Assembly (NCBI GenBank): GCA_030614005.1
Contig: JAUWKS010000004.1
Coordinates: 18,840-50,839, forward strand
Origin: Candidatus Heimdallarchaeota archaeon
GTDB taxonomy: Archaea; Asgardarchaeota; Heimdallarchaeia; JABLTI01
DNA length: 32,000 nucleotides
Direction: 5' to 3'
In this document: piece by piece, positions 4,221 through 31,420 of the stretch
Numbering within the stretch: the stretch's first letter is position 1
Layout: each line of letters begins with the position of its first letter
Program-made: the position numbers and the translations under genes
The notes under the pieces: generated by a model
Database searches by the model: none
Told to the model about the DNA's origin: nothing
Seen by the model: the letters and a program-made list of their open reading frames with translations, nothing else

Positions 4221-7200
4221 ATGACAAAAAATAGGATAGTTAAAGGATCAATAGTAATGATCATCACCCTTCTATTTATGGCTATGACTATTTCGACAGC
4301 ACAACTTAAAGCTACAACAGTAGACGAAAGTAAAGTACAAATTGCTGATGCGGAATATACAGGAAGCCAATACATAGAAGGAATTGATATCTATCCGCTA
4401 AAGGATACTGCTATAGGAGTTAATGTAGGATTCATTGGTGGAACTGTTGAATTGCCTTTTGATGTTACAACATATAGTAATTTAGAAGCTTTGAATTTGA
4501 TCGTTGCAAATCAAGCAGCCTGGCGAATGCATTCTCAAAGAAGATTCTGGGATGTTTCGGACGGAACATCACTGATGTTAGTCTTTAGAGGATTAACAAC
4601 CGGCGAATCCCTCACTCAAGGGAATGCTATTGCAGCAATGATCGAAACAGCTTATAATTTCTCATTAAGCCTAGTATTTGGTCAATGGGAAGCAGGACTC
4701 GAAATATCTATTCTCGTATATCAAGGAAGAATAGCTGATGAAAGTGTATTTGATTCATTCACAGATGACTTTACCAGTTATGTGTCTGACGATGGATTTG
4801 GCGAAGGAATTACTTCAAGTGTGCTAAACAATGCACCTGTTAAAGCCATGGGTGTTTCATTAGTGAAAGGTAGATATTTACTAATGCAACCTGCTTTAGG
4901 TCTTATTCCAGTACTTGAGTGTGCTTGGATTGATCCTGATGGATTAGAGAAAGATGGTACAGTTATTGATGTAAGCTTGCTCAATATTATGCCTGATTTA
5001 ACTGAAGTTAGTGGGGCAGCAAATGCACTTGCAAGTATAGTCAAATTGGATTTACCATATGTCGTTGATGTTTTAGTAGTTGACCCTGATACGGATAATA
5101 TGTATCCTCATCTCAAAGGTAAATTTGAATGGGTTGTAAAAGTTGATCTTCCTATTTGGCAACGAGATGAAACATATGATGATATTTTTGTCTCCTATGA
5201 TCTTAATTTAAGTGACATGCGTTCTTATCCCCAAGTTATTGGTGAATTATCTCTAAATGCAAGTTTACCATTTAATGGTGGACAAGATATTGAATATATA
5301 TTCACCTGGGAGAACGTTGGCGCTGAAACGGCATACAATGTAACTCTCTCTTATGGAGAGTTTGCTTATGATGAATTGGATGGTTTTTCACTTCTCGTTG
5401 AAAACCCTGATTTAACCTTTGATGAAAACAAAATTATTTATTGCAACACTACAGATGGATATATTTCAGAAGCATTGCTTATTGGTTCAGATATCTGTTC
5501 AATTGAAGGATGGTTCTATAATGACACATCTGCCTCTTGGTTAGGAGTTGGTGGATATTATCCAGGTGAGAATTTAGACTATCTCATAAGTTTAGCCTAT
5601 ACTGAACAAACATACTTGCATCTAGATGTTGGAGATTTCGAGAAAACAAATCTCACAGATATTGAAGACGCATTCACTTTAACAACAACAATAGACGAAT
5701 TAGCTCCTGGAGAGAATGTAACCAAGAGTTTTGCTGTTAGAGATTTACCAACAGGTACTGTTAATATCTATAATTCAACTACAGGAACAATAACAAACGC
5801 CACTATTTTCATACAAGATTCTCCAAACTGGGAAGAATATTTCACTCTCATGTTGAGAATGCATGGTTCTTCATTACATATTCCTGAAGATCAAGTTACT
5901 TGGACTAATTGGTTCCCACAAGAAGTTGTTGGGTCAGCTTATGTCTATACTGAAGCTGATGGCACAGAATACATGGGATTGACAAATGGCTTAGTAATAC
6001 AAATATATGATGACGAAGCAGTTTTGGTTGGGAAAGTTAGTTTAGACAAAGATGTTTATACATTTGGTGAGAACGTAACCTTCACTTTAGAGCTTGAAAA
6101 CATCGGCAATGCAAATGCAACAGATGTGGATTATCAATTCTATCATGCATTTATTACAGATGATTTAGAATTAGGTTATATTCACGAGATTCTTGGATCA
6201 GAAGGAACTATACCATTAATTAAACCAGGTGAAACTGTTACAGTAGAATACACTGAAACAGCTACAACTAACATTGGTTTACATCCAGTGTTCGCTGTCT
6301 TCGGATATACAAGCGATGAACCCGGCACTGACCCAAGAGATGTTCCCACACCTTTACCTTGGTATCTAACTGAAGGTCTGTCAGAAGCACAAGTCAATTT
6401 TATTGAGGCGTTGGTTTATGCCAATCCAATATTCAATACTACCAGACACAATGCTGTTATTAGTTCCATGGATTTTGGATTAGTTTTACCACCTCCAAGC
6501 AAAGAAGGTACAACACAACCAACTTATCCAACACCAGAAGTTGAAGTTACAACTGAACTTCTCGGTTTAACAAATGATACTACAATTGGAGATGAATTAA
6601 CTCTTAGAACAACGATTACCAATGTTGGAGATGAACCAACAAATATAATCTATTTACAGAGAATTCCATCTAGCTTAGGTTTCGTAGCAGATACTGATAG
6701 CGTTACCGTTGAAGGAGTTGCAGTCTCTTACGATAAAGCTTGGGTTAACCCTCCATATTTCGGTATGACTATGGGCATTATAGCAGGTGACTTAACTACT
6801 CCCGTTGGAGCAATCGGTGTTCCACTTGATGTAAATGAGACAATGGTTATTGAAGTAACACTAGAAGTCAAAACAAGTGGTGAAATCTTCATTCCATCCG
6901 CAGAGATTCGTTACAACAGTGCTTACGATATGACAACACGCAATGGAATAAATGATGATTCATCTGCTCCAACTAATGAAACACAAACTGCGATGTTGAA
7001 TGGGCTTTATGCTACAAGTAAATCTAGCGATATAACAGCGGATCTTTCCATAAATGACATAGGTGACGGATCAGATAGGGCATCCACAAATAGTTGGGGT
7101 TCCTATTCCGATAGTTTAACTTTTGCCATACAATCACTTAGTGACCTTAATCCTAACTGGCGTAACTTCATCTATATTGGTGTAGGACTTATCGCAGTTA

Positions 7201-7250
7201 CAGGTGTAGCAGTGCTTATCTATTTCCGTGCAAACGGCAAAAAGCATTAA
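4221..7250 (+). CDS. Large secreted, C-terminally membrane-anchored surface protein with CARDB/DUF11-like beta-sandwich modules; predicted glycoprotein
   Basis: The N-terminal region MTKNRIVKGSIVMIITLLFMAMTISTAQ has a positive n-region plus a hydrophobic core. The C-terminal FIYIGVGLIAVTGVAVLIYFRANGKKH is a TM helix with a basic tail. Three modules carry the signature xENVGxxxAxNV: WENVGAETAYNVTL near 5301-5350, LENIGNANATDVDY near 6089-6130 and ITNVGDEPTNIIYL near 6613-6645. I counted about 16 N-x-S/T sequons by hand. Confidence 0.65.
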   Translation: MTKNRIVKGSIVMIITLLFMAMTISTAQLKATTVDESKVQIADAEYTGSQYIEGIDIYPLKDTAIGVNVGFIGGTVELPFDVTTYSNLEALNLIVANQAAWRMHSQRRFWDVSDGTSLMLVFRGLTTGESLTQGNAIAAMIETAYNFSLSLVFGQWEAGLEISILVYQGRIADESVFDSFTDDFTSYVSDDGFGEGITSSVLNNAPVKAMGVSLVKGRYLLMQPALGLIPVLECAWIDPDGLEKDGTVIDVSLLNIMPDLTEVSGAANALASIVKLDLPYVVDVLVVDPDTDNMYPHLKGKFEWVVKVDLPIWQRDETYDDIFVSYDLNLSDMRSYPQVIGELSLNASLPFNGGQDIEYIFTWENVGAETAYNVTLSYGEFAYDELDGFSLLVENPDLTFDENKIIYCNTTDGYISEALLIGSDICSIEGWFYNDTSASWLGVGGYYPGENLDYLISLAYTEQTYLHLDVGDFEKTNLTDIEDAFTLTTTIDELAPGENVTKSFAVRDLPTGTVNIYNSTTGTITNATIFIQDSPNWEEYFTLMLRMHGSSLHIPEDQVTWTNWFPQEVVGSAYVYTEADGTEYMGLTNGLVIQIYDDEAVLVGKVSLDKDVYTFGENVTFTLELENIGNANATDVDYQFYHAFITDDLELGYIHEILGSEGTIPLIKPGETVTVEYTETATTNIGLHPVFAVFGYTSDEPGTDPRDVPTPLPWYLTEGLSEAQVNFIEALVYANPIFNTTRHNAVISSMDFGLVLPPPSKEGTTQPTYPTPEVEVTTELLGLTNDTTIGDELTLRTTITNVGDEPTNIIYLQRIPSSLGFVADTDSVTVEGVAVSYDKAWVNPPYFGMTMGIIAGDLTTPVGAIGVPLDVNETMVIEVTLEVKTSGEIFIPSAEIRYNSAYDMTTRNGINDDSSAPTNETQTAMLNGLYATSKSSDITADLSINDIGDGSDRASTNSWGSYSDSLTFAIQSLSDLNPNWRNFIYIGVGLIAVTGVAVLIYFRANGKKH

Positions 7251-7415: not shown

Positions 7416-9356
7416 ATGTCAATGAAAGAAGTTAGTTCTGATTACTTACGGGCTCGCGGTTTAAGTGAATCTGAGATTTTGGTTTATTCCACAGTATTGG
7501 GTCTTGGTAATGCTACTATTGGAGAAATAAACTTAGCTATTAAAATGGAACTTCCTGAGATTTATATTCAAATTAAGCAATTAGAGGAGATTAGCTATAT
7601 CAAGAAACTCCCCGGTAAAGTCCCCCGCTACATTGCTATGGAACCCTTCTTGAAAGATTATGCACAGCTAAGTTCTGAAGTTAAACTAGGACTGTTAAGC
7701 ATTAAGGATAATTTTCATACTCAAGTAAATGAGTTTAATACAAAAATCAAAACTGTTGTTCCGCAATTAGCGGATTTTTGCGAGCTGGAAAAAAACACCA
7801 GAACTGATGAGTTAGCAAAGAAATACGATAAATTAGAGCACAGTTTGAATCAAATGGTTGATAACAATTTTCAGCAACTGAACCATTTGGGCGTAGCCCT
7901 TAGCACATGGCCCTCTGACAGTATTGAAAAAACATTACCTGCTTTTGAGGGAGATTTAGAGACAAGTAAGGATAATTTTGTTGGGGCAATTTCCAAATAT
8001 GCTGACTCTCTAGTTATAGATTCTAGAGAGATAAGAGATAAATTAGAGAAATCAACAATTCACCATAAAATTCTTGTTGCAGAAAGGCTTGAGAAATTAA
8101 AAAGAGATATTGAAGATTCTCTTGCCGAACTTCGTGACAATATAGTAAAACAAAATTTCACAATAACATCTAGCTATAGTGCAAATCTTGACGAGAAAGA
8201 TGTCACTGCAAGGGAAAACGCTGCTCAAATTATCAGCGATTTAATCAAGAACGTAGTTATTCTTGCACGTGATATGGAGGGTGATATTAGTAGTCATACT
8301 TCTCAAATGATAAATAATTCACTTGGCCCATTATTTAGGCAATTTGATTTTCTTCAAAGTGAAGTTAAAACTACACTTGGAACACTCCTCGAAGAGCACT
8401 CAGAAGAAGTAACAAAATTCGTTCGATATGTAAATCATACAGTTGAATCTACAGTACCGGATGTTTTGGAATTAGTAACCACTCATCTTGAAGAGAGCAG
8501 AGATGAATCAGCTAGATTTATTGACCAAAAAATAACTGATCCCTTCAAAGAACTTGAAAAAATGAAAGGTGATATTGCTCAAGATATTTCTCAATTTAAG
8601 GAAAACATCACTAAAGAAGCACATAAACAAGATGAAGTTGCTCGTGCTTCGATTACAGATAGGCTTGCAAAAATTGAGGAAAAAGTTGACCTAAGTAAAC
8701 TAGAAATCAAAGATATAATATCACTTTCAAGGATAGACACCGAAGATATCATTCAAAATCTTATTAAGAATATTATCAATGAAAATTCAGATAAAATTAA
8801 TGCAACGACAACAATAATGCAAGAAGCAGGAAACAAATTAGATAATACTCTCGGAAATACTATTTTCCTTCTTGATGATTCTGGAAAAACCTTTGATGGC
8901 ATTGTCAATATGTCTGAGAAAGTTATGCCTCTAGCAGATCTCGAAATCAGTCTAATTTATGGCAATGAATGTATAGTTCGTGCAATGAAAGATATGCTCT
9001 TACGTGCGAAAGAAGAAATCACTATTATCACCCCTGAAATACTCACCGATTTCCTTTATGAAATTGAGAAGCAACCACAGGTAACTAATTATCAGCTTGT
9101 TTCCAAAATTAAAGAAGAAGATGTAAGTTTACTGACCTCTTTGGTTAAACGAGGAAATGTCAACACGATGAATTACAAAGGAATGGATTATTGGATTGCA
9201 ATTAAAGACAACGAAGAAATTCTTTTTGCACCAAGAATACATCCTGAGAAAAATATTGCTTTTATCACCACAAATCCTAAATTATTCCAACTCTTCTTTG
9301 ATTTAACAAATCAGAAAGTCTTTTCACAAATGAAAGCTCAAGAATTTCAATCCTAG
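7416..9356 (+). CDS. TrmB-family winged-helix regulator with a ~400-aa helical/coiled-coil insertion between the N-terminal wHTH and the TrmB-type C-terminal domain
   Basis: The N-terminal LRARGLSESEILVYSTVLGLGNATIGEINLAIKMELPEIYIQIKQLEEISYIKKLPGKVPRYIAMEP fits the TrmB wHTH pattern. The C-terminal IYGNECIVRAMKDMLLRAKEEITIITPE...LVKRGNVNTM...AIKDNEEILFAP resembles the TrmB C-terminal (PLD-like) domain. The middle region is charged and helix-prone. A GAGGA Shine-Dalgarno sequence lies 8 nt upstream of the ATG. Confidence 0.6.
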   Translation: MSMKEVSSDYLRARGLSESEILVYSTVLGLGNATIGEINLAIKMELPEIYIQIKQLEEISYIKKLPGKVPRYIAMEPFLKDYAQLSSEVKLGLLSIKDNFHTQVNEFNTKIKTVVPQLADFCELEKNTRTDELAKKYDKLEHSLNQMVDNNFQQLNHLGVALSTWPSDSIEKTLPAFEGDLETSKDNFVGAISKYADSLVIDSREIRDKLEKSTIHHKILVAERLEKLKRDIEDSLAELRDNIVKQNFTITSSYSANLDEKDVTARENAAQIISDLIKNVVILARDMEGDISSHTSQMINNSLGPLFRQFDFLQSEVKTTLGTLLEEHSEEVTKFVRYVNHTVESTVPDVLELVTTHLEESRDESARFIDQKITDPFKELEKMKGDIAQDISQFKENITKEAHKQDEVARASITDRLAKIEEKVDLSKLEIKDIISLSRIDTEDIIQNLIKNIINENSDKINATTTIMQEAGNKLDNTLGNTIFLLDDSGKTFDGIVNMSEKVMPLADLEISLIYGNECIVRAMKDMLLRAKEEITIITPEILTDFLYEIEKQPQVTNYQLVSKIKEEDVSLLTSLVKRGNVNTMNYKGMDYWIAIKDNEEILFAPRIHPEKNIAFITTNPKLFQLFFDLTNQKVFSQMKAQEFQS

Positions 9357-21244: not shown

Positions 21245-21290
21245 TCAGTTTATCCTCGCTGATACGGTCTTCTAGGACTATCTTTTCATG

Positions 21291-21303
21291 CCAAAAATAT
21301 AAT
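21291..21303 (-). promoter_or_regulatory. Candidate TATA box for the rpoB operon
   Basis: The minus strand reads gattatatttttgg about 50 nt upstream of the rpoB ATG. This would give a short leader containing the GAGGA site. AT-rich context makes the call weak. Confidence 0.25.
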
Positions 21304-21761
21304 CATGAAGTGTGCTACTTTTTAGCTGGAAGAGCAATGAAATCAATGCGGAAACTTTTATCTTTTAAATCTTATGCAAGAAACGCCATTTTGTAAATTT
21401 TTTTTCTCTTATTTGTTAATTTGCTATTAATAATAATAATGCACCACGGTCTTTAACATAAAATAATCTGACTGTAATTCATTTTTTGCAAAAAGTGTTT
21501 TTTTAGTTAGCAGATTCTAAGATGATGTTCCTATTTTTCGATTCCCCTCAATATGATGACTTCTGGACATGATTTTTAATTATACAATATTTATTTATAC
21601 AAACTCCTTCAAAAATTTTTCTATTATGTGAAAAAATAAATTCGTGGTTTTTTAATGCTCTAATTTGAATTAAGTTATAGAATTCTTTAGCATTAGCAGA
21701 AATCAATTATTTGTGATCTAATGGTTAAAGAAAAAGCTAAAACAAATGAGATGAATCCCTT

Positions 21762-22721
21762 ATGCATACAGAACAAGAATTGGAGATGGAAATAGAAAAA
21801 GTTCTAATTGCTGGATTAGATAATGCCGGGAAAAGCTCAATTCAAGATATATTGAAATATATCCCAATTGAAGCTGCGCAGAGAAGAACACCGAGTAAAG
21901 ATCTTGAGATATCAGAAAAAAAATTCTTAAAAAAGAAGTATATCTTTTTCATTCCACCAGGACAAGAAGATTTACGGTTGAAAGAATTTCATGGTACAAT
22001 GAAAAATGAGTATTTTGAAAATGTTAGTACGTTCATTTTTGTTGTTGATTCATCTGAAATTGAAAGAGTAAATGAAGCTAGAGAAGAGTTACAAAGATCA
22101 ATTGAAGATCTAATGCTGCTTTCTCCTGAATGTAAAAAATTTATTCTTCTTGCTCATAAACAAGATCTAGACGAAGCTGAAAATGGGTTATCTCTCAAAA
22201 AGCAAATTCTCGATCCTTTAAATCATCTTTTTCCAAATATTATTTATCAATTCAAAATATTTGAAACAACACTCTTTAGTCCTGAGACAATTCATGAACC
22301 ATTTGTAAAAGTTATTGCTAAACATGTTGGTATAAATAGATTCGATTTTGATAAATTGGCTGAATGGGTTCGAAAGCAAACGAATGCTAAAATCGTTCTT
22401 GTTACTGACCCCAATGGGTTACTCATTGGAGAATCATTTACAGGTATTGAAAATTCCACTGTTTTTGCTGCTTATGTAGCAAAAATTTTCTCTGCTATTG
22501 AAGACTTTCAAGCAGATTTAGAAGTTGGAGGGATAAAAATTATTGTCCTTGAGGATGAAGATGAGTCAAATTATAGTATAGTATCCAGAATTAATTGCAC
22601 AAAAGATGATTATTTAGCACTTTTAATTGGATTTCCAAAAACGCAAATTGGGATGACGAGAATCATAAATCGCACAGGGTTAAGTCATTTGAAGGATGCT
22701 TATAATAGCTATAAGACTTAA
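21762..22721 (+). CDS. Arf-family small GTPase fused to a C-terminal Roadblock/LC7 (MglB-like) domain
   Basis: G1 is GLDNAGKS (21813-21836). FVVDSSEIERVNEAREEL closely matches my recollection of human ARF1 (FVVDSNDRERVNEAREEL). G4 is HKQD. The C-terminal ~120 aa (KIVLVTDPNGLLIGESF...GGIKIIVLEDEDESNYSIVSRI...DDYLALLIGFPKTQIG) fit the Roadblock/LC7 pattern. The start could instead be the internal ATG at 21786. Confidence 0.8.
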   Translation: MHTEQELEMEIEKVLIAGLDNAGKSSIQDILKYIPIEAAQRRTPSKDLEISEKKFLKKKYIFFIPPGQEDLRLKEFHGTMKNEYFENVSTFIFVVDSSEIERVNEAREELQRSIEDLMLLSPECKKFILLAHKQDLDEAENGLSLKKQILDPLNHLFPNIIYQFKIFETTLFSPETIHEPFVKVIAKHVGINRFDFDKLAEWVRKQTNAKIVLVTDPNGLLIGESFTGIENSTVFAAYVAKIFSAIEDFQADLEVGGIKIIVLEDEDESNYSIVSRINCTKDDYLALLIGFPKTQIGMTRIINRTGLSHLKDAYNSYKT

Positions 22722-22771
22722 TGAAGAAAATCAAATAAAAAAATCCAATTAATTAGACCTGGGTGTAGGTA

Positions 22772-23833
22772 ATGATTACAAGTACAAAGTTGGGCATAAT
22801 TCTTGTTGAATTTGATTCACTTAAAGGACCAGTTATTCGAAATAAAAATCCAAAGAATTTTCAAATTCCAAATGAAACAAATGATGAAAATTTACTTATG
22901 TGGATATTAAGAGCAAATGAGTTCTCTGTTCGAAAAATTGGAAAGCAAACAGCATTTGCAAAAGCTATTTCTTTGGATGACCCAAATTTTCCTAGAAAGA
23001 AAAGACAGTTTGGATTAGGATTAATAGCTCAACCAACTATAGATTTGATTGAAGCAGAGAAAATCTTAGATTTAATTATTTCTACAAGTAAAAAAATAAG
23101 TAATAATAAACCATACTTTAAGATGCTAAATGGATTATTAACTTCAATTGCTAATTTCATAATTCCAAGTGAATTCAGCAATAGTGAAACTCTATCACCT
23201 CAAGAAAGAAAACCAATGAGCAGAATTCAAAATGAAATTATTCTGAAGCAAGAAACACCACGTATGCTAATTAGTAACAAATTTAATGTATTTCAAAAAG
23301 TAGTCATTTCTTCAAAGCAATCAAATTATACCATTTCTATTGGAAACAAAGAAACCTCCCTTGAATTAGAAAGAAATACTTCACATAAAGAAATGAGCAT
23401 TTCTACAGAAAAAATGAAAATTGATGTTGTAGTTCAAAAAGATATTCCGGAGAACTTACAGATAGGGCTAGATATTTTTTCAAGAATACTAGATGTTGTA
23501 ATAGATATATCAAATATTGAGAATAGGGTAGTATCCAGTTTGGAGTTTTTGGATAGATTACTACTTGAAGATGTTGATATTCACTATTACATGCCTTTCT
23601 CACAATACCTAGTTGCAATGGAAGCATATACCATATCTGAATTTAAAAATGAAGAAATTGAAGATCAAATTGCTAATTTCAAAGATACATACGGAGAATG
23701 GGTAGAGTGTATAATTGGAAAGGAATTTGATGGAAAAAAATTAGCTGAATTTTTCACTGTAACAGGTATAACACGTGAGAGTTTAGAATTACTGATTGAC
23801 CTATTATTTGTGAAACTTGTTGCAATCTTTTAA
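22772..23833 (+). CDS. Hypothetical protein with longin-like (FLCN/DENN-type) N-terminal domain pattern; possible GTPase regulator
   Basis: LGIILVEFDSLKGPVIRNKNP, then the helix NDENLLMWILRAN, then TAFAKAISLDDPNFPRKKRQFGLGLIAQP, then the helix DLIEAEKILDLIISTSKKI. This gives a beta-beta-alpha-beta-beta-beta-alpha order. It lies 50 nt downstream of the GTPase gene, with GGTG upstream of the ATG. The domain call is by eye only. Confidence 0.4.
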   Translation: MITSTKLGIILVEFDSLKGPVIRNKNPKNFQIPNETNDENLLMWILRANEFSVRKIGKQTAFAKAISLDDPNFPRKKRQFGLGLIAQPTIDLIEAEKILDLIISTSKKISNNKPYFKMLNGLLTSIANFIIPSEFSNSETLSPQERKPMSRIQNEIILKQETPRMLISNKFNVFQKVVISSKQSNYTISIGNKETSLELERNTSHKEMSISTEKMKIDVVVQKDIPENLQIGLDIFSRILDVVIDISNIENRVVSSLEFLDRLLLEDVDIHYYMPFSQYLVAMEAYTISEFKNEEIEDQIANFKDTYGEWVECIIGKEFDGKKLAEFFTVTGITRESLELLIDLLFVKLVAIF

Positions 23834-23882
23834 GAATCACAATAATTACTAGAATAACTAGTAAGGAGGCATCTCCGAAAGA

Positions 23883-24743
23883 ATGACCCATTCCATCAAC
23901 GAGAAGAAAGCACAATCCAATTCGATAATTATTCCAGATACGCCCGCAATAATGTTTAATGAAAAGGAATATAATAAAACATTAATTGTTTCTGATTTAC
24001 ACATTGGATACGTTTATGGAAGAAACACAAAAGGAATCATCCTTCCTGAATCAAAACGACCAGAAGATGATATCATTCGATTGCTTGATGAAAAACAACC
24101 AGACACGCTAATATTTCTTGGGGATTTTAAAGACGATATTTATGGAACACCACATCCAATTGCTGGAAGGATTTGGAAGTTTCTTAAACAATTAATGAAA
24201 AAGACTAATGTCATAATAATTAAAGGAAATCATGATGGGAAAATTGAAGAAATCATTCCGGAAGAAATAACTCTTATTCAACCTGAAGGATTGCTATTAA
24301 CCCAAAAAGAAACAAATAAATCGATTGGTCTTTGGCATGGACATGCTTCACCAGCCTTAGATGCATGGACAGCAGACATAACTATTTCTGCACATGCTCA
24401 CCCAGCATATACTTTTCGTGATGAGATTGGATCCAAGATAACTCAAAAAGTTTGGGTAAAAGCAAAGTGGTTGAATGCCAAAGAAGGAAAACCGGATAGA
24501 ATTCATATTATCATTCCCCCATTCAACAGATATATTGAAGGATATTCTGTAGATAGTGATTATTTTAAAACAATAGTATTAATGAGAGATGCAATTGATT
24601 TTGATAATGCTGAAATATTTACTCTCGAGGGAATTTTAATTGGTACATTAAAAAATCTCCGAGAGAATAGAAGAGAACTAGAAAGGAGATTAAATACATT
24701 AAGAAAAGAAGTAAATGCTAGTAAAAAGAAAAGAAAATACTAG
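23883..24743 (+). CDS. Calcineurin-like metallophosphoesterase (archaeal SbcD/Mre11-related type) with Lys-rich coiled C-terminal tail
   Basis: Motifs in canonical order: VSDLHIG, FLGDFKDD, IKGNHDG, WHGHA and SAHAHP. AAGGAGG lies ~13 nt upstream. The gene starts 49 nt after the preceding gene. Confidence 0.8.
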   Translation: MTHSINEKKAQSNSIIIPDTPAIMFNEKEYNKTLIVSDLHIGYVYGRNTKGIILPESKRPEDDIIRLLDEKQPDTLIFLGDFKDDIYGTPHPIAGRIWKFLKQLMKKTNVIIIKGNHDGKIEEIIPEEITLIQPEGLLLTQKETNKSIGLWHGHASPALDAWTADITISAHAHPAYTFRDEIGSKITQKVWVKAKWLNAKEGKPDRIHIIIPPFNRYIEGYSVDSDYFKTIVLMRDAIDFDNAEIFTLEGILIGTLKNLRENRRELERRLNTLRKEVNASKKKRKY

Positions 24744-26238: not shown

Positions 26239-27522
26239 TTATAAATTAAATAATAATAGGGCAATGTTGCCATACAACAAATACTGAATATACCCTAAGA
26301 ACATTAGAGAAACAAAAGGTATTCCAGGTGTAACCCAAACTGATTTCTTGTGTTGTTTTCTTAGCTGCCAGAGAGTTCGCAATTGTCTTTGCTCCATAAC
26401 ATCATCTTCATCTAAGCCCATTCTTATTTTGAGTTGCCAATCTTGAGAGTTCTTTGTAGTGTTACCATTCATTTTTCCTTTTGATGACTGACCTTCAAAA
26501 TCGCCAGCTAATTTACCAATCATTTTTCCAGATAATTGACCTTCGAAAATTCCTTCAAGTGTACCAATAAAACATCCTTTAATTGGATGAGTATATCTAC
26601 CATCAATATTGATTAGATATTCATTGGGTTCCAAAGCTACCTCTTCGGTTTCTTCAAAAGTTCCACGATATTTCATTAAGAGAGCAGTAACCGTTTCATC
26701 GTCATCATCATCTTTTCTGAGCTCTAATGCTTTTGTAAGACGTTCAGCTTTTGTAATAGCATTCTCAAGAGTTAATTTCTCGAAATTTTCAGTATCAGCC
26801 AATTGAATTACTCCAATTACTTTTCCTGTAAATTCACCTATTAATTCACCATCGAAAATTCCAAGGAATTTCCCATCTAATCGACCTTCAAAGTTACCTT
26901 CAAAATTGCCCGAGAACTCCTTATCGGTGAATTCTTCTAGAAAATCAAAATGTAATTTTTTCTCATTAATTTTGCTTACAGGTTTCTTATATCCGAAGAA
27001 GAAGCATCTGATTTTTTGGGATGCAGTACCCCTTACTTCATTAAAGAGCGATTCCTTTGATGCAGAAATAGCATTTACTACCATAAGAATTAGTGGATAG
27101 AAAATAGCTATAAGACCAGCATTCAGTAACAATGAGAATACCATTGAGTCAATAATGTTTATTATCAATAAATCAGGTAAGTTGATGTTTACTAAATTAG
27201 TAGTAAGAGGATTAACAGGAGTAAGTATCGAGAGTGCCCAAAGTGCTTTGGTATCTGCTCCACCCCATACACCAAGATAAAATAAAATAAAGCCTATTAA
27301 AAATCCTAAAACAACAGTAATTAGGATGAGAAGCAGAGCATTATTTTGATCCTCGGCATTAATAACATACAAAGTATCCATTACTAATCCTATGATAACC
27401 ATAAGGACCCATACTATCTCTCTTCGAACCTCTCTGTGGAGAATATCTTCAATTCCTGCATAAAGTAAAGCAGCAAGAGTAACTGTGGGAACTATAATTG
27501 AATAAACAAGTTCGAATGACAT
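26239..27522 (-). CDS. A24-family prepilin/preflagellin-type aspartic peptidase with a ~235-aa soluble insertion
   Basis: First catalytic-Asp context is AGIEDILHREVRREI (D26, TM1). The second is GVWGGADTKALWAL (D89, GxGD-like). The protein has multiple TM helices and a terminal VWVTPGIPFVSLMFLGY helix. Residues ~156-393 are hydrophilic. Confidence 0.75.
   Translation of the reverse strand: MSFELVYSIIVPTVTLAALLYAGIEDILHREVRREIVWVLMVIIGLVMDTLYVINAEDQNNALLLILITVVLGFLIGFILFYLGVWGGADTKALWALSILTPVNPLTTNLVNINLPDLLIINIIDSMVFSLLLNAGLIAIFYPLILMVVNAISASKESLFNEVRGTASQKIRCFFFGYKKPVSKINEKKLHFDFLEEFTDKEFSGNFEGNFEGRLDGKFLGIFDGELIGEFTGKVIGVIQLADTENFEKLTLENAITKAERLTKALELRKDDDDDETVTALLMKYRGTFEETEEVALEPNEYLINIDGRYTHPIKGCFIGTLEGIFEGQLSGKMIGKLAGDFEGQSSKGKMNGNTTKNSQDWQLKIRMGLDEDDVMEQRQLRTLWQLRKQHKKSVWVTPGIPFVSLMFLGYIQYLLYGNIALLLFNL
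26464..26577 (-). repeat. Coding tetrad repeat block 2 in the peptidase insert
   Basis: aa 316-353 read G CFIG TLEG IFEG QLSG KMIG KLAG DFEG QSSKG KMNG. Eight Gly lie at exact 4-residue spacing, followed by two more. Confidence 0.85.
26812..26916 (-). repeat. Coding tetrad repeat block 1 in the peptidase insert: nine Gly at exact 4-residue spacing
   Basis: aa 203-237 read FSG NFEG NFEG RLDG KFLG IFDG ELIG EFTG KVIG. I verified the reverse complement of 26881-26916 as F S G N F E G N F E G R. Confidence 0.85.
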
Positions 27523-30004: not shown

Positions 30005-31420
30005 TTATTCTTTTTTAGCTTTTATTGCTTTTTTTGCTTTTACGTCTGTAACAATTCCTACAGCGACTGTTTGTCCCATATCACGTGCGGCAAAACGTCC
30101 CAATGCGGGGAAGTCTGCGAATTTTTCGCAAATGAATGGTGCAAATGGTTGGAATGTAATCTCAGCAAAGTCACCTTGTAAGAGGTATATTTTTGGATCA
30201 TATTCACCTGTGGCTACTAGGGATTTACGTTGTGGTGATTTCTTCAAAACCTTCCAATCAACAATTTGGCATGCTTGTGCAGCTTGACCAAGATGGATGA
30301 TTGGTGCATACCCTTTAGCCATACCAGTTGGTTGTGAAGCTCCAGGTTTGGAGAGGTTCTTCAATACGAAGGTACGGGCTACAAAGGTTTCAACGATCTT
30401 TGGAGCATCTTTGGGATGACCAATGACATCGCCTTTGATGATTTCATTTCGAGCAATACCTTTTATGTTAAAGCCAACATTATCACCAGGAACTGCTTGT
30501 GTAAGTTGTTCGTGATGCATTTCAATGGATTGAACTTTAGCTTTTTGGTTTGAAATTGGGAAAACAACTTCATCGCCTGGTTTTAAGATACCAGATTCAA
30601 TTTTCCCTACTGGGACAGTACCTACACCTTTGATTGCATATACATCTTGAACAGGCATTCTAAGTGGTTTGCCAGTTGGTTTTTCTGGAGCTTTAAATTC
30701 ATTAATCGCATCCATTAAAGCTAAACCTTTATACCAAGGCATTTTATCGCTTTTGCCAACTAAACCATCGCCAGTCATTCCACTTGTTGGAACGAATTTG
30801 ATAGATTCAACACGTTCTTTTGAAACAAGACCGCTTTTAACAAAGCCGTTAAGTAATGCTGTTATTCTTTCAACAACACCAAGGTAAGCTTTTTCTTCAA
30901 ACTTTACTAGATCCATTTTATTTACTGCAACAACTATTTGGGTAATACCAAGAGTAATTGCAAGTGTTAAATGCTCAATTGTTTGACCACCAGGGATTCT
31001 TCTATCACCCTTTGGTGTCTTCTCAACTCGCTCTTCAGCAAGACCAGACTCAAGATCGTTCTTTTCAACAGAAACGACGAGAATTGCAGCATTGGCTTGA
31101 GAGGCACCAGTAATCATGTTCTTTACAAAGTCCCTGTGACCAGGGGCATCAATAATTGTAAAAACGCTACTTTTAGTCTCAAACTTAAAGAAAGAAACAT
31201 CGATAGTTAAACCTCTTTCGCGTTCTTCTTGGAGCTTTTGTAAGACCCACGCGTATTTCCATGAGGGCTTTCCGATTGCCTCTGATTCTTCTGCATACTT
31301 CTGGATCAACCTTTCGTCGACTGCCCCTGCTTTATAGAGAGCATGTCCAGTCATTGTACTCTTGCCATGATCAACATGACCAATGACCACTAAGTTCAAA
31401 TGGGGTTTATCGTCAGCCAT
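30005..31420 (-). CDS. tuf: Translation elongation factor EF-1alpha (aEF1A), long form with insertions
   Basis: G1 is GHVDHGKST, G3 is DAPGHRDF and G4 is NKMD. The N-terminus is KPHLNLVVIG. KYAWVLQKLQEERERGLTID and GRFAARDMGQTVAVG are also present. AGGTG lies ~9 nt upstream of the ATG. Confidence 0.9.
   Translation of the reverse strand: MADDKPHLNLVVIGHVDHGKSTMTGHALYKAGAVDERLIQKYAEESEAIGKPSWKYAWVLQKLQEERERGLTIDVSFFKFETKSSVFTIIDAPGHRDFVKNMITGASQANAAILVVSVEKNDLESGLAEERVEKTPKGDRRIPGGQTIEHLTLAITLGITQIVVAVNKMDLVKFEEKAYLGVVERITALLNGFVKSGLVSKERVESIKFVPTSGMTGDGLVGKSDKMPWYKGLALMDAINEFKAPEKPTGKPLRMPVQDVYAIKGVGTVPVGKIESGILKPGDEVVFPISNQKAKVQSIEMHHEQLTQAVPGDNVGFNIKGIARNEIIKGDVIGHPKDAPKIVETFVARTFVLKNLSKPGASQPTGMAKGYAPIIHLGQAAQACQIVDWKVLKKSPQRKSLVATGEYDPKIYLLQGDFAEITFQPFAPFICEKFADFPALGRFAARDMGQTVAVGIVTDVKAKKAIKAKKE

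What the first reader, a model, noticed from the sequence alone, without database searches (positions are those of the whole stretch)
21762..24743. Tight three-gene unit: Arf-Roadblock fusion GTPase, longin-like orphan protein, metallophosphoesterase
The three plus-strand genes are separated by only 50 and 49 nt. The second and third have SD-like sites (GGTG, AAGGAGG), and all follow a 517-bp promoter region. The first gene fuses an Arf-family G domain to a Roadblock/LC7 domain, the fold of MglB-type GAPs and Ragulator/LAMTOR platforms. The second begins with a longin-like pattern, the fold of many eukaryotic GEFs and GAPs (DENN, FLCN, TRAPP, Mon1-Ccz1). A GTPase encoded next to a longin-domain partner resembles a minimal eukaryote-type GTPase regulatory platform. 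The phosphoesterase as third member has no obvious precedent. Asgard small GTPases and Roadblock/longin proteins are known in general, but I am not aware of a functional description of this trio.
Basis: partly seen in the sequence, partly recalled or inferred. Interest (0 to 1): 0.7.

Follow-up and report, generated by a model that had tools for sequence, protein, structure and literature searches.

The report
Archaeal Rag-like GTPase with NPRL2-like partner
An Asgard (Heimdall-group) archaeon encodes, back to back, a Rag-type GTPase and a protein whose longin domain carries the catalytic signature of the eukaryotic Rag regulators NPRL2 and folliculin; the same two-gene pair recurs in other Asgard lineages, so it may be a minimal forerunner of the eukaryotic nutrient-sensing switch, while the third gene (a phosphoesterase) is only a local neighbour.

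Summary
The three ORFs, their 50/49-nt spacers, the SD-like sites and the 517-bp upstream gap are all real. Gene 1 is a Rag/Gtr-type GTPase: G domain plus C-terminal Roadblock domain, Rag-type HKxD motif, and all top 25 fold matches are full-length Rag, Gtr or LokiRag. Its G3 motif lacks the Walker-B Asp. Gene 2 is not an orphan; about 50 clusters exist, all in one Heimdall clade. Its predicted N-terminal domain is a longin fold whose best matches are NPRL2/Npr2, then FLCN and Lst4. It carries the "GP motif", and its invariant Arg75 aligns with the NPRL2 Arg78 finger. Within the Heimdall clade the whole 16-kb block is collinear, so synteny there proves nothing. However, distant Rag-like GTPases (25–29 % identity), including one from Njordarchaeales, are each followed by a gene-2-like longin gene. 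These follow within 4 nt or overlap, and sit in unrelated contexts without a phosphoesterase. Adding these sequences makes the profile match to NPRL2 significant (z = 9.3). Verdict: a conserved two-gene module of Rag-like GTPase and GAP-type longin protein. The "trio" is not supported. No biochemistry or complex model was available.

The parts
21641..21658 (+). Conserved TATA-like block (TTCGTGGTTTTTTAATGC) about 105-120 nt upstream of gene 1; candidate promoter element of the unit
   Evidence: Near-invariant in 9 aligned relatives, while the centre of the spacer is not conserved. Function is inferred, not shown.
21762..22721 (+). Gene 1: Rag/Gtr-like GTPase, 319 aa. G domain is about aa 10-185 (nt 21789-22316); Roadblock C-terminal domain is about aa 196-318 (nt 22347-22715)
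   Evidence: Pfam Arf 9e-16, Gtr1_RagA 5e-15, Robl_LC7 0.009. AF2 model has a confident G domain and a C-terminal a-b-b-a-b-b-b-a order. Foldseek top 25 are all full-length RagA/RagC/Gtr1/Gtr2/LokiRagO/LokiRagM, E 8e-18 to 6e-12.
21945..21965 (+). G3/switch II motif F62-F-I-P-P-G-Q68: catalytic Gln present, Walker-B Asp replaced by Ile/Val
   Evidence: Invariant in the family. Arf1 D67 aligns with I64. Partner-bearing distant relatives have FV[TF]PGQ.
22155..22166 (+). G4 motif H132-K-Q-D135 (Rag-type HKxD)
   Evidence: Invariant. Aligns with RagA H127-K-M-D, using a RagA sequence verified against PDB.
22761..22765 (+). SD-like GGGTG upstream of gene 2
   Evidence: An SD-like motif is present in 13/15 related loci.
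22772..23833 (+). Gene 2: 353-aa longin-domain protein. Longin is aa 1-127 (nt 22772-23152), a disordered linker aa 136-162, a beta-rich middle module aa 164-241 (nt 23261-23494), and a helical C-terminal module aa 250-353 (nt 23519-23830)
   Evidence: AF2 pLDDT 80.3, with b-b-a-b-b-b-a-a order at the N-terminus. Foldseek best matches are GATOR1 chains of NPRL2 size (2.6e-5), yeast Npr2 8adl_S, FLCN-FNIP2 complex chains, Lst4 and DENND10. 49 homolog clusters, and only 12 clusters among 1.84e9 representatives.
22808..22831 (+). E13-F-D-S-x-K-G19-P20: 'GP motif' at the b1-b2 junction of the longin domain
   Evidence: E13, F14, G19 and P20 are invariant across 16 sequences, including distant partners at 13-18 % identity. 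Aligns with NPRL2 E14-F-H-P-T-L-G20-P21. The motif is defined in PMC12290439.
22979..23014 (+). D70-P-N-F-x-R75-K-K-R78-Q-F-G81 hairpin; R75 (nt 22994-22996) is the candidate arginine finger
   Evidence: D70, P71, N72, R75, K76, R78, F80 and G81 are invariant in 41 sequences. hhalign places R75 on NPRL2 R78. By eye, an Arg at the R75 position is kept in the distant partners, whereas R78 is often Lys.
23863..23869 (+). SD-like AAGGAGG upstream of gene 3
   Evidence: An SD-like motif is present in 12/15 related loci.
23883..24743 (+). Gene 3: calcineurin-like metallophosphoesterase, SbcD/Mre11-related. Probably co-transcribed, but not part of the conserved module
   Evidence: Metallophos 3e-9; TIGR00024 SbcD_rel_arch 1.4e-20, below the curated cut-off; PdeM 9e-15. 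PDB matches only SbcD/Mre11 at 4.5e-4. All five metal-site motifs are present in 15 loci. Absent next to every distant GTPase-longin pair.

Best explanation
Genes 1 and 2 form a co-transcribed two-gene GTPase switch. Gene 1 is a Rag/Gtr-type small GTPase: an Arf/Rag-like G domain with a C-terminal Roadblock domain that, as in Rags, probably mediates dimerisation. Gene 2 is its cognate regulator, most likely a GTPase-activating protein. In this model the longin domain docks on the nucleotide pocket of gene 1 and supplies Arg75, positioned by the neighbouring Gly19-Pro20 motif. This is how NPRL2 (Arg78) acts on RagA and FLCN (Arg164) acts on RagC. Gene 1 lacks the Walker-B aspartate, so its intrinsic hydrolysis may be poor and strongly dependent on the partner. 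Gene 3, an SbcD/Mre11-related phosphoesterase, is probably transcribed with them in this clade but is not part of the conserved module. Shown here: domain architectures, motifs, fold similarity, and recurrence of the gene pair in unrelated contexts. Inferred: physical interaction, GAP activity, the identity of the finger residue, co-transcription, and the cellular process controlled.
For: (1) Gene 1 is Rag-like. All top 25 Foldseek hits are full-length Rag/Gtr/LokiRag. HKxD and a switch II that aligns to RagA without a gap. Roadblock secondary-structure order. (2) The gene 2 longin domain is of GAP type. Best fold matches are NPRL2/Npr2, then FLCN and Lst4. Using the broadened profile, hhalign against the NPRL2 longin scores 28.3 versus column shuffles of 10.8±1.9 (0/200 reach it, z = 9.3, E = 2.8e-4), and aligns GP with GP and R75 with R78. 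According to PMC12290439, the GP motif is specific to GAP-type longins and absent from FNIP2, NPRL3, DENND, TRAPP and adaptin longins. (3) Linkage independent of synteny. A gene-2-only longin HMM was run against 1227 neighbouring ORFs (1078 in the distant loci). Its five best hits outside the clade (four distinct loci: L053 1.5e-6, L065 1.8e-4, L046 5.7e-3, L061/L063 0.02) and one weaker hit (L043, 0.21) are the ORF immediately downstream of a Rag-like GTPase on the same strand. The chance product is about 1e-6. Genes overlap by 14, 11 and 1 nt. The contexts are unrelated. One of these lineages is Njordarchaeales. (4) These GTPases score best against Gtr1_RagA and share gene 1's Asp-less G3 and AHKQD motifs. 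All 7 loci (6 distinct) of the FV[TF]PGQ subfamily have the partner, against 0 of 14 NKxD-type GTPases. (5) Operon features are conserved in 15 loci.
Against: There is no interaction model or biochemistry. The gene-2-only profile against NPRL2 is only marginal (7/200 shuffles reach it). The NPRL2 profile was vertebrate-only and of low diversity. No Pfam NPR2 or Folliculin hit. Similarity beyond the longin domain is unproven: TM-scores are 0.24-0.27 and there is no C-terminal sequence signal. Most longin proteins are GEFs or platforms, not GAPs. Eukaryotic GAP longins act as heterodimers (NPRL2-NPRL3, FLCN-FNIP), and no second longin partner was found. The choice between R75 and R78 rests on a low-confidence alignment. 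Within the Heimdall clade the whole block is collinear, so conservation there carries no information. Remote Freyarchaeota Rag-like relatives have no longin neighbour. The Roadblock domain of gene 1 is modelled with low confidence (pLDDT 40-68).
Confidence: 0.55

Rival explanations
1. Gene 2 is a genuine partner of the GTPase but not a GAP. It would act as a nucleotide-exchange factor, a docking platform or an effector, as most longin/DENN proteins do (DENN, Mon1-Ccz1, TRAPP).
For: DENND10, DENND1A and Mon1-Ccz1 are also among the fold matches. Liu et al. proposed a GEF role for an Asgard DENN module. Without the Walker-B Asp, nucleotide or Mg2+ affinity might be low, which would make exchange the regulated step.
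Against: The GP motif plus a conserved Arg at the NPRL2 finger position is reported only for GAP-type longins and is conserved across all divergent partners. NPRL2/Npr2 and FLCN rank above most of the GEF longins.
Confidence: 0.25
2. A true three-component system in this clade: the phosphoesterase is functionally integrated with the GTPase pair, for example by hydrolysing a nucleotide signal or acting as the downstream effector.
For: Same strand, 43-67-nt spacer, SD-like motif in 12/15 loci, no T5+ tract between genes 2 and 3, and intact catalytic motifs in all 15 loci.
Against: It is absent from every distant version of the pair. It belongs to a general archaeal SbcD-related/PdeM-like family. 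Its conservation cannot be told apart from the collinearity of the whole 16-kb block.
Confidence: 0.1
3. The adjacency has no functional meaning: three unrelated genes that happen to sit together in a conserved housekeeping region.
For: All Heimdall-clade loci are collinear from rpoA' to EF-1alpha, with RpoB 88-97 % identical. Tran et al. state that MK-D1 GTPases are generally not in operons with Roadblock or longin genes.
Against: The pair recurs with overlapping genes in at least four other, unrelated contexts at 25-29 % GTPase identity.
Confidence: 0.07

Closest known systems
GATOR1/SEACIT (NPRL2-NPRL3-DEPDC5; yeast Npr2-Npr3-Iml1) acting on RagA/Gtr1
   Same: A Rag-architecture GTPase (G domain plus Roadblock) paired with a protein whose longin domain has the GP motif and an Arg aligning with the NPRL2 Arg78 finger. 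NPRL2/Npr2 chains are the best structural matches for gene 2.
   Different: There is no NPRL3-like second longin subunit, no DEPDC5, and no detectable NPRL2-specific C-terminal domain. The two are encoded as a two-gene operon. The GTPase G domain is closest to Arf by sequence and lacks the G3 Asp. There is no TOR kinase context (Liu et al.).
FLCN-FNIP (yeast Lst7-Lst4), the GAP for RagC/Gtr2
   Same: A GAP-type longin with a GP motif and arginine finger acting on a Rag. Chains of FLCN-FNIP2 complexes and the Lst4 longin domain are among the fold matches. Gene 1's G3 'PPGQ' resembles, from my own knowledge, the RagC/Gtr2 'DFPGQ'.
   Different: No DENN domain was recognised in gene 2, no FNIP-like partner was found, and there is no Pfam Folliculin match.
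Heimdallarchaeial 'FLCN/SMCR8-type' GP-motif longins (Traffic 2025, PMC12290439) and Asgard NPRL2-like proteins (Liu et al., 10.1101/2020.10.19.343400)
   Same: The same class of Asgard longin, with a GP motif and Arg finger.
   Different: Those papers identify no GTPase partner; the first asks explicitly whether it is ArfR or Rag/Gtr. The only Asgard GTPase-regulator operon described (LAMTOR1-like + Rab-like + DENN) has a non-Rag GTPase. The gene 2 family carries no name or UniRef source and has an extra clade-specific C-terminal module. I could not check whether it is in their data sets.
Asgard Rag-like GTPases LokiRagO and LokiRagM (PDB 8yl2, 9m28, 8zla) and the RagGtr clade
   Same: Full-length structural and sequence matches to gene 1.
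   Different: 20 % identity or less. Gene 1 and its partner-bearing relatives form a subfamily with an Asp-less G3. No regulator has been reported for the Loki proteins in the searchable literature.
MglA-MglB (bacterial Ras-like GTPase with a Roadblock GAP)
   Same: A prokaryotic small GTPase encoded next to a Roadblock/longin-superfamily regulator.
   Different: In MglA-MglB the Roadblock protein is the separate GAP and supplies no arginine finger (own knowledge). [quoted passage not shown]

Membership tests
Rag/Gtr GTPases | G domain followed by a C-terminal Roadblock domain | tested here: met
   Pfam Gtr1_RagA covers aa 13-215 and Robl_LC7 aa 205-264. The C-terminal secondary structure follows the Roadblock order. 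Full-length Foldseek matches to Rag/Gtr at E 8e-18. The C-terminal domain pLDDT is only 40-68.
Rag/Gtr GTPases | G4 motif HKxD instead of NKxD | tested here: met
   H132-K-Q-D is invariant and aligns with RagA H127-K-M-D (RagA sequence verified).
Rag/Gtr GTPases | Canonical G3 motif DxxGQ | tested here: not met
   FF[IV]PPGQ in all members: the Asp is replaced by Ile/Val and the Gln is kept.
Rag/Gtr GTPases | Phylogenetic placement inside the RagGtr clade rather than Arf/ArfR | tested here: inconclusive
   By sequence the G domain is closest to Arf1 (5e-19) and then RagA (2.5e-15). By Pfam, Arf and Gtr1_RagA are nearly equal. Distant partner-bearing relatives score best as Gtr1_RagA. No tree was built.
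Rag/Gtr GTPases | Dimerisation through the Roadblock domains | not testable with these tools
   No multimer prediction was available.
GAP-type longin proteins (NPRL2 / FLCN / SMCR8) | Longin fold (b-b-a-b-b-b-a-a) | tested here: met
   AF2 model elements E7-15, E19-26, H38-47, E52-56, E59-70, E73-86, H92-110 and H115-127. Foldseek matches to NPRL2, Npr2, FLCN, Lst4 and DENND10.
GAP-type longin proteins (NPRL2 / FLCN / SMCR8) | GP motif at the start of strand b2 | tested here: met
   G19-P20 is invariant in 16 divergent sequences and aligns with NPRL2 G20-P21. Definition from PMC12290439.
GAP-type longin proteins (NPRL2 / FLCN / SMCR8) | Conserved arginine finger at the NPRL2 Arg78 position | tested here: met
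   R75 is invariant and aligns with R78 in three hhalign runs. The per-residue confidence is low, and R78 of gene 2 is an alternative.
GAP-type longin proteins (NPRL2 / FLCN / SMCR8) | Significant sequence-profile relationship to NPRL2 | tested here: met
   The gene-2-only profile is marginal (7/200 shuffles). The broadened profile gives z = 9.3, 0/200 and E = 2.8e-4 for the longin domain. Pfam NPR2 and Folliculin models do not match.
GAP-type longin proteins (NPRL2 / FLCN / SMCR8) | NPRL2-specific C-terminal domain or DENN domain after the longin | tested here: inconclusive
   Foldseek alignments to GATOR1 chains span 374-398 columns, but TM is 0.24-0.27. hhalign of the C-terminal halves gives no signal. 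Distant partners lack the gene 2 C-terminal module.
GAP-type longin proteins (NPRL2 / FLCN / SMCR8) | Heterodimeric second longin subunit (NPRL3 / FNIP / C9orf72) | tested here: not met
   No second longin gene lies in the window or next to the distant pairs. The exhaustive profile search finds a single family. A very divergent paralog elsewhere in the genome cannot be excluded.
GAP-type longin proteins (NPRL2 / FLCN / SMCR8) | GAP activity towards the partner GTPase | not testable with these tools
   Needs biochemistry.
Calcineurin-like metallophosphoesterases (TIGR00024 SbcD_rel_arch) | Five metal-binding motifs (DxH, GD, GNH[DE], H, GHxH-type) | tested here: met
   All five are present in 15 loci. 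Pfam Metallophos scores 38.1 bits, above the 21.5 cut-off.
Calcineurin-like metallophosphoesterases (TIGR00024 SbcD_rel_arch) | Score above the curated TIGR00024 cut-off | tested here: not met
   74.0 bits against a cut-off of 115.2, although the match covers profile positions 14-223 of 224.
Operon (single transcription unit) | Same strand, short spacers, internal SD sites, no internal terminator signal | tested here: met
   Transcript evidence cannot be obtained here.

The most novel reading that the evidence does not exclude
This two-gene module would be the surviving prokaryotic form of the Rag-GATOR1/FLCN axis. On this reading, the pairing of a Rag-type GTPase with an arginine-finger longin GAP arose in Asgard archaea before eukaryogenesis, as a self-contained operon. 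Eukaryotes then elaborated it by duplication (RagA/C, NPRL2/3, FLCN/FNIP, SMCR8/C9orf72) and wired it to TOR and the lysosome. The Asp-less G3 would mark a GTPase subfamily that depends obligatorily on its encoded partner.
Probability: 0.3. Interest if true: 0.85.

Novelty: new variant of a known kind. Interest (0 to 1): 0.7.

Why it matters
Asgard genomes encode dozens of small GTPases and Roadblock/longin proteins, but who regulates whom is an acknowledged open problem. Tran et al. say matching GTPases to GAPs or GEFs from genome layout is difficult. Zhu et al. found no native Arf regulators. The 2025 Traffic paper asks whether GP-motif Asgard longins act on ArfR or on Rag/Gtr GTPases. This locus and its distant counterparts give a concrete, genome-encoded answer for one family: the partner is a Rag-architecture GTPase. 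They also provide six divergent, small, soluble protein pairs that can be expressed and tested directly. If GAP activity through Arg75 is confirmed, the mechanism of the central eukaryotic amino-acid-sensing switch would be traced to a minimal archaeal module. The origin of the GAP-type longin family (NPRL2, FLCN, SMCR8) would then become experimentally tractable.

Tried and rejected
- Pfam and NCBIfam on gene 2, and Pfam on all 41 family members: nothing consistent. There were only isolated sub-threshold Afi1 and Folliculin hits.
- hmmsearch of the gene 2 profile against PDB sequences: noise only.
- hhalign of the C-terminal halves of gene 2 and NPRL2: no signal.
- I looked for broken synteny in 28 loci of the Heimdall clade, including the most divergent members (P0036, P0038, P0040, P0045, P0093, P0094, P0096). 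All are collinear, so that route cannot test linkage.
- The remote Freyarchaeota relatives of gene 1 have no longin neighbour.
- rpoH or another small gene or RNA in the 517-bp gap: none found.
- The bacterial sigma-70 promoter and terminator scan is at background and does not apply to archaea.
- I considered whether gene 3 could be a Vps29-like (retromer-type) phosphoesterase-fold scaffold. It is unsupported: PDB sequence matches are only SbcD/Mre11, and all catalytic motifs are intact.
- The apparent N-terminally truncated 311-aa gene 2 homologs, which would lack the GP motif, are a start-codon miscall. The N-terminus is encoded in frame.
- The supplementary list of Asgard longins in PMC12290439 is not held, so overlap with the gene 2 family could not be checked.


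Full report
**Observation.** The window (about 35 % GC) carries three + strand ORFs at 21762-22721 (319 aa), 22772-23833 (353 aa) and 23883-24743 (286 aa). They are separated by 50 and 49 nt. A 517-bp gap separates them from the divergently transcribed rpoB, and a convergent FAD-dependent oxidoreductase gene follows 24 nt downstream. GGGTG and AAGGAGG precede genes 2 and 3 at SD-like distances. The gap contains no credible ORF (in particular no rpoH) and no Rfam family.

**Gene 1.** Pfam gives Arf (9e-16) and Gtr1_RagA (5e-15, covering aa 13-215) almost equally, plus a weak Roadblock hit at aa 205-264.
- By sequence the G domain is closest to Arf1 (profile E 5e-19), then RagA (2.5e-15). The only full-length matches are Gtr1 and PDB 8yl2.
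- An AlphaFold model built on 32 homologs has a confident G domain. The C-terminal domain is low-confidence, but its predicted order a-b-b-a-b-b-b-a is that of Roadblock.
- Its 25 best Foldseek matches in the PDB are all full-length Rag-family proteins: RagA, RagC, Gtr1, Gtr2, and the Asgard LokiRagO and LokiRagM (E 8e-18 to 6e-12, about 310-320 aligned columns). Arf-only matches come after these.
- The G4 motif is an invariant H-K-Q-D. It aligns with RagA H-K-M-D in a BLASTP alignment to a RagA sequence that I verified against the PDB. Switch II aligns to RagA without a gap, whereas alignment to Arf1 needs a 6-residue gap.
- One feature is unusual. The G3 motif is FF[IV]PPGQ in every member, so the Walker-B Asp is replaced by Ile/Val while the catalytic Gln is kept.

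**Gene 2.** It has no Pfam or NCBIfam match but is not an orphan. There are 49 clusters in the 5.8-billion-protein collection, nearly all labelled Heimdallarchaeota or Asgard. An exhaustive profile scan of 1.84 billion representatives finds just 12 clusters, all at E ≤ 1e-12, with nothing in the twilight zone.

The alignment shows three regions: a conserved N-terminal part of about 125 aa, a variable middle, and a conserved C-terminal part of about 110 aa. The AlphaFold model (pLDDT 80.3) has the following layout:
- an N-terminal b-b-a-b-b-b-a-a module, which is the longin order;
- a disordered linker;
- a beta-rich middle module;
- a helical C-terminal module.

The best Foldseek matches are 360-370-residue chains of GATOR1 complexes (E 2.6e-5, probability 1.0, 374-398 aligned columns). 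After them come yeast Npr2 (8adl_S), DENND10, chains of FLCN-FNIP2 complexes, Mon1-Ccz1 and the Lst4 longin domain. 8adl_S is confirmed as Npr2, and the GATOR1 entries are confirmed to contain NPRL2. I did not establish which subunit each GATOR1 chain is. TM-scores are low (0.24-0.27), so only the longin domain is securely superposable.

**Motifs in gene 2.** A 2025 paper (PMC12290439) defines a "GP motif" at the start of strand b2. Together with the arginine finger, it distinguishes the GAP-type longins (NPRL2, FLCN, SMCR8, C9orf72) from FNIP2, NPRL3, DENND, TRAPP and adaptin longins. The paper reports this motif in some Heimdallarchaeial longins and leaves open whether their partners are ArfR or Rag/Gtr GTPases. 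Gene 2 has E13-F-D-S-x-K-G19-P20 at exactly that position. It also has an invariant hairpin D70-P-N-F-x-R75-K-K-R78-Q-F-G81. hhalign against an NPRL2 alignment pairs G19-P20 with NPRL2 G20-P21, and R75 with the NPRL2 finger R78. With the gene 2 family alone this alignment is only marginal: score 16.9 against column shuffles of 12.0±2.4, with 7 of 200 shuffles reaching it. The C-terminal halves give no signal.

**Gene 3.** It is a calcineurin-like metallophosphoesterase (Metallophos 3e-9). It lies closest to the archaeal SbcD-related family TIGR00024 (1.4e-20, below the cut-off) and to PdeM. Its only PDB sequence relatives are SbcD/Mre11. All five metal-site motifs are intact.

**Neighbourhood within the clade.** In 28 loci from relatives, including the most divergent gene 2 homologs, the whole region is collinear. 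The order is rpoA'-rpoB, then genes 1-2-3, then the FAD oxidoreductase, A24 peptidase, DHDPS, a hypothetical gene, PadR and EF-1alpha. RpoB is 88-97 % identical across these loci. The gene 2 family and this synteny block are therefore co-extensive, and conservation of the trio here cannot separate function from inheritance.

Operon-type features do hold in 15 distinct loci:
- spacers of 19-61 and 43-67 nt;
- no T5+ tract in any spacer;
- SD-like motifs in 13/15 loci (gene 2) and 12/15 loci (gene 3).

A TATA-like block about 105-120 nt upstream of gene 1 is conserved, while the centre of the spacer is not. A sub-group annotated as 311 aa, which would lack the GP motif, is a start-codon miscall. 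The N-terminus, including EFDSIKGP, is encoded in frame after a GGAGGT.

**Independent evidence for the pair.** A metagenome scan seeded with the gene 1 alignment returned about 70 loci encoding distant Rag/Arf-like GTPases. I screened all 1227 stop-to-stop ORFs of the 80 scan loci (1078 of them in the distant loci) with an HMM built only from the gene 2 longin domain.
- *Hits.* The five best hits outside the clade are L053 (1.5e-6), L065 (1.8e-4), L046 (5.7e-3) and L061/L063 (0.02), i.e. four distinct loci. Each is the ORF immediately downstream of the GTPase on the same strand, as is a weaker hit in L043 (0.21). One non-adjacent ORF (L092, 0.12) ranks between them. The product of 1/(ORFs per locus) for the five distinct loci is about 1e-6.
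- *Coupling.* The genes overlap by 14 nt (L061), 11 nt (L046) and 1 nt (L043).
- *Contexts.* The flanks are unrelated to each other and to the window. L061 has eIF2-gamma on one side and CopG-like and methyltransferase genes on the other. L046 has an M24 peptidase on one side and CGI-121, a GHMP kinase and RNase HII on the other. There is no phosphoesterase and no rpoB.
- *Lineage.* The L043-type longin protein is annotated from Candidatus Njordarchaeum guaymaensis and other Njordarchaeia MAGs.
- *GTPases.* They are 25-29 % identical to gene 1 and 28-56 % identical to each other. They score best against Gtr1_RagA (5e-17 to 4e-12). They share gene 1's peculiarities: FV[TF]PGQ without Asp, and AHKQD.
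- *Longins.* The longin partners are 23-37 % identical to each other. Three of them link to gene 2 by BLASTP at 1e-5 to 8e-4.
- *Counts.* All 7 loci (6 distinct) of this GTPase subfamily that have downstream sequence carry the partner. None of the 14 NKxD-type GTPases does. One canonical-G3 Rag-like GTPase (L101) has a GP-longin ORF 177 nt downstream, with a second-iteration E of 7.7e-4.

Across the 16-sequence alignment, E13, F14, G19 and P20 are invariant. By eye, an Arg at the R75 position is retained, whereas R78 is often Lys. With this broadened profile the match to the NPRL2 longin domain becomes significant: score 28.3 against 10.8±1.9, 0 of 200 shuffles, z = 9.3, hhalign E = 2.8e-4. 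The GP/GP and R75/R78 equivalences are unchanged. The distant partners are shorter (245-290 aa) and lack the gene 2 C-terminal module, which is therefore specific to this clade.

**Interpretation.** The conserved functional unit is the two-gene pair: a Rag-architecture GTPase followed by a GAP-type longin protein. The most likely mechanism is that gene 2 stimulates GTP hydrolysis on gene 1 through an arginine finger (R75) next to the GP motif, as NPRL2 does on RagA and FLCN on RagC. The missing Walker-B Asp suggests weak intrinsic activity and dependence on the partner. I put 0.55 on this reading, and about 0.8 on the broader claim that the two proteins are a cognate pair whatever the activity. 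Alternatives are a GEF, platform or effector role for gene 2 (0.25), true involvement of the phosphoesterase in this clade (0.1), and meaningless adjacency (0.07). Interaction, activity, co-transcription and cellular role are all inferred.

**Comparison with what is known.** The following are already known:
- Asgard RagGtr GTPases (and PDB entries);
- NPRL2-like longins in Thor and Loki, and FLCN-like DENN proteins;
- GP-motif longins in Heimdallarchaeia.

The following is also on record:
- the only described Asgard GTPase-regulator operon contains a non-Rag GTPase;
- MK-D1 GTPases are said not to sit in operons with Roadblock or longin genes;
- native regulators of Asgard Arf-like GTPases are reported as unidentified.

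Five literature searches found no description of a pair of Rag-like GTPase and GAP-type longin genes. The library is limited to open-access papers and bioRxiv, so I cannot exclude a report elsewhere. I classify the finding as a new variant of a known kind. Its components belong to known superfamilies, and the Rag-longin-GAP relationship is known in eukaryotes. The minimal operonic archaeal form, the Asp-less GTPase subfamily and the gene 2 family itself appear to be undescribed.

Noticed in passing
window 26239-27522 (-): The A24 prepilin-type peptidase (Peptidase_A24 + Arc_PepC_II) carries a long insert with two arrays of about eight 4-residue repeats G-x-[FLIM]-x (GNFEGNFEGRLDGKFLGIFDGELIGEFTGKVIG ... 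GCFIGTLEGIFEGQLSGKMIGKLAGDFEGQ), separated by an acidic stretch.
   Followed up: no
window 21245-21400 (rpoB-proximal part of the 517-bp spacer): About 55 nt next to the rpoB start, an invariant AGCTGGAAGAGC and an invariant TATA-like TCTTTTAAAT are conserved in 9 relatives. This suggests a conserved promoter and leader of about 100 nt for the RNA polymerase operon. No rpoH gene lies upstream of rpoB.
   Followed up: partly
window 21945-21965 (gene 1 aa 62-68); also L041, L043, L046, L053, L061, L065: A whole subfamily of Rag-like GTPases lacks the Walker-B Asp of G3 (FF[IV]PPGQ or FV[TF]PGQ) while keeping the catalytic Gln and HKQD. A second Asp-less group of about 277 aa ([YF][YF]V/IIPGQ; L044, L049, L050, L054) has no longin partner.
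   Followed up: partly
L027 6859-7000: Gene 2 homologs annotated as 311 aa (P0041-P0047) really begin about 43 codons upstream. The conserved N-terminus is in frame but has no ATG/GTG/TTG. An ATA codon lies 7 nt after a GGAGGT, which suggests a non-canonical start codon.
   Followed up: partly
L024 8175-9030; L038 4110-5145: In L024 the phosphoesterase gene is split into 68- and 153-aa ORFs, while a second contig with the identical gene 2 protein (L025) has it intact. In L038 gene 2 is split into two overlapping ORFs. These are frameshifts, assembly errors or strain-level pseudogenes.
   Followed up: no
L051 1019-1774 (+): Downstream of an Asp-less Rag-like GTPase (FEVFPGQ) lies a 252-aa ORF with an N-terminal transmembrane segment and a 'FFGVDSQIGPVF' motif near residue 150. 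It may be a membrane-anchored variant of the longin partner. The HMMs did not detect it.
   Followed up: no
L101 1889-3789 (+): A Rag-like GTPase with canonical DFGGQ/HKFD motifs (ORF only 185 aa, perhaps truncated) is followed 177 nt downstream by a 367-390-aa ORF with 'RFDDRLGP' and a second-iteration longin HMM hit of 7.7e-4. This could be a second type of Rag-longin pair.
   Followed up: partly
window 4221-7250 (+): A 1009-aa protein whose only domain hits are TRAP_beta (translocon-associated protein beta, 1.6e-8), CARDB and DUF11 around aa 600-684. It is probably a large surface protein with a domain better known from eukaryotes.
   Followed up: no
window 7416-9356 (+): A 646-aa TrmB-family regulator in which the N-terminal winged helix (aa 11-77) and the C-terminal TrmB regulator domain (aa 511-630) are separated by about 430 aa. 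The first part of that stretch (aa 61-243) gives an apolipoprotein-type, coiled-coil-like match.
   Followed up: no
window 30005-31420 (-): In EF-1alpha (470 aa) the GTP_EFTU domain spans 236 residues against a 188-position profile, which implies an insertion of about 50 aa in the G domain. Relatives range from 443 to 464 aa.
   Followed up: no
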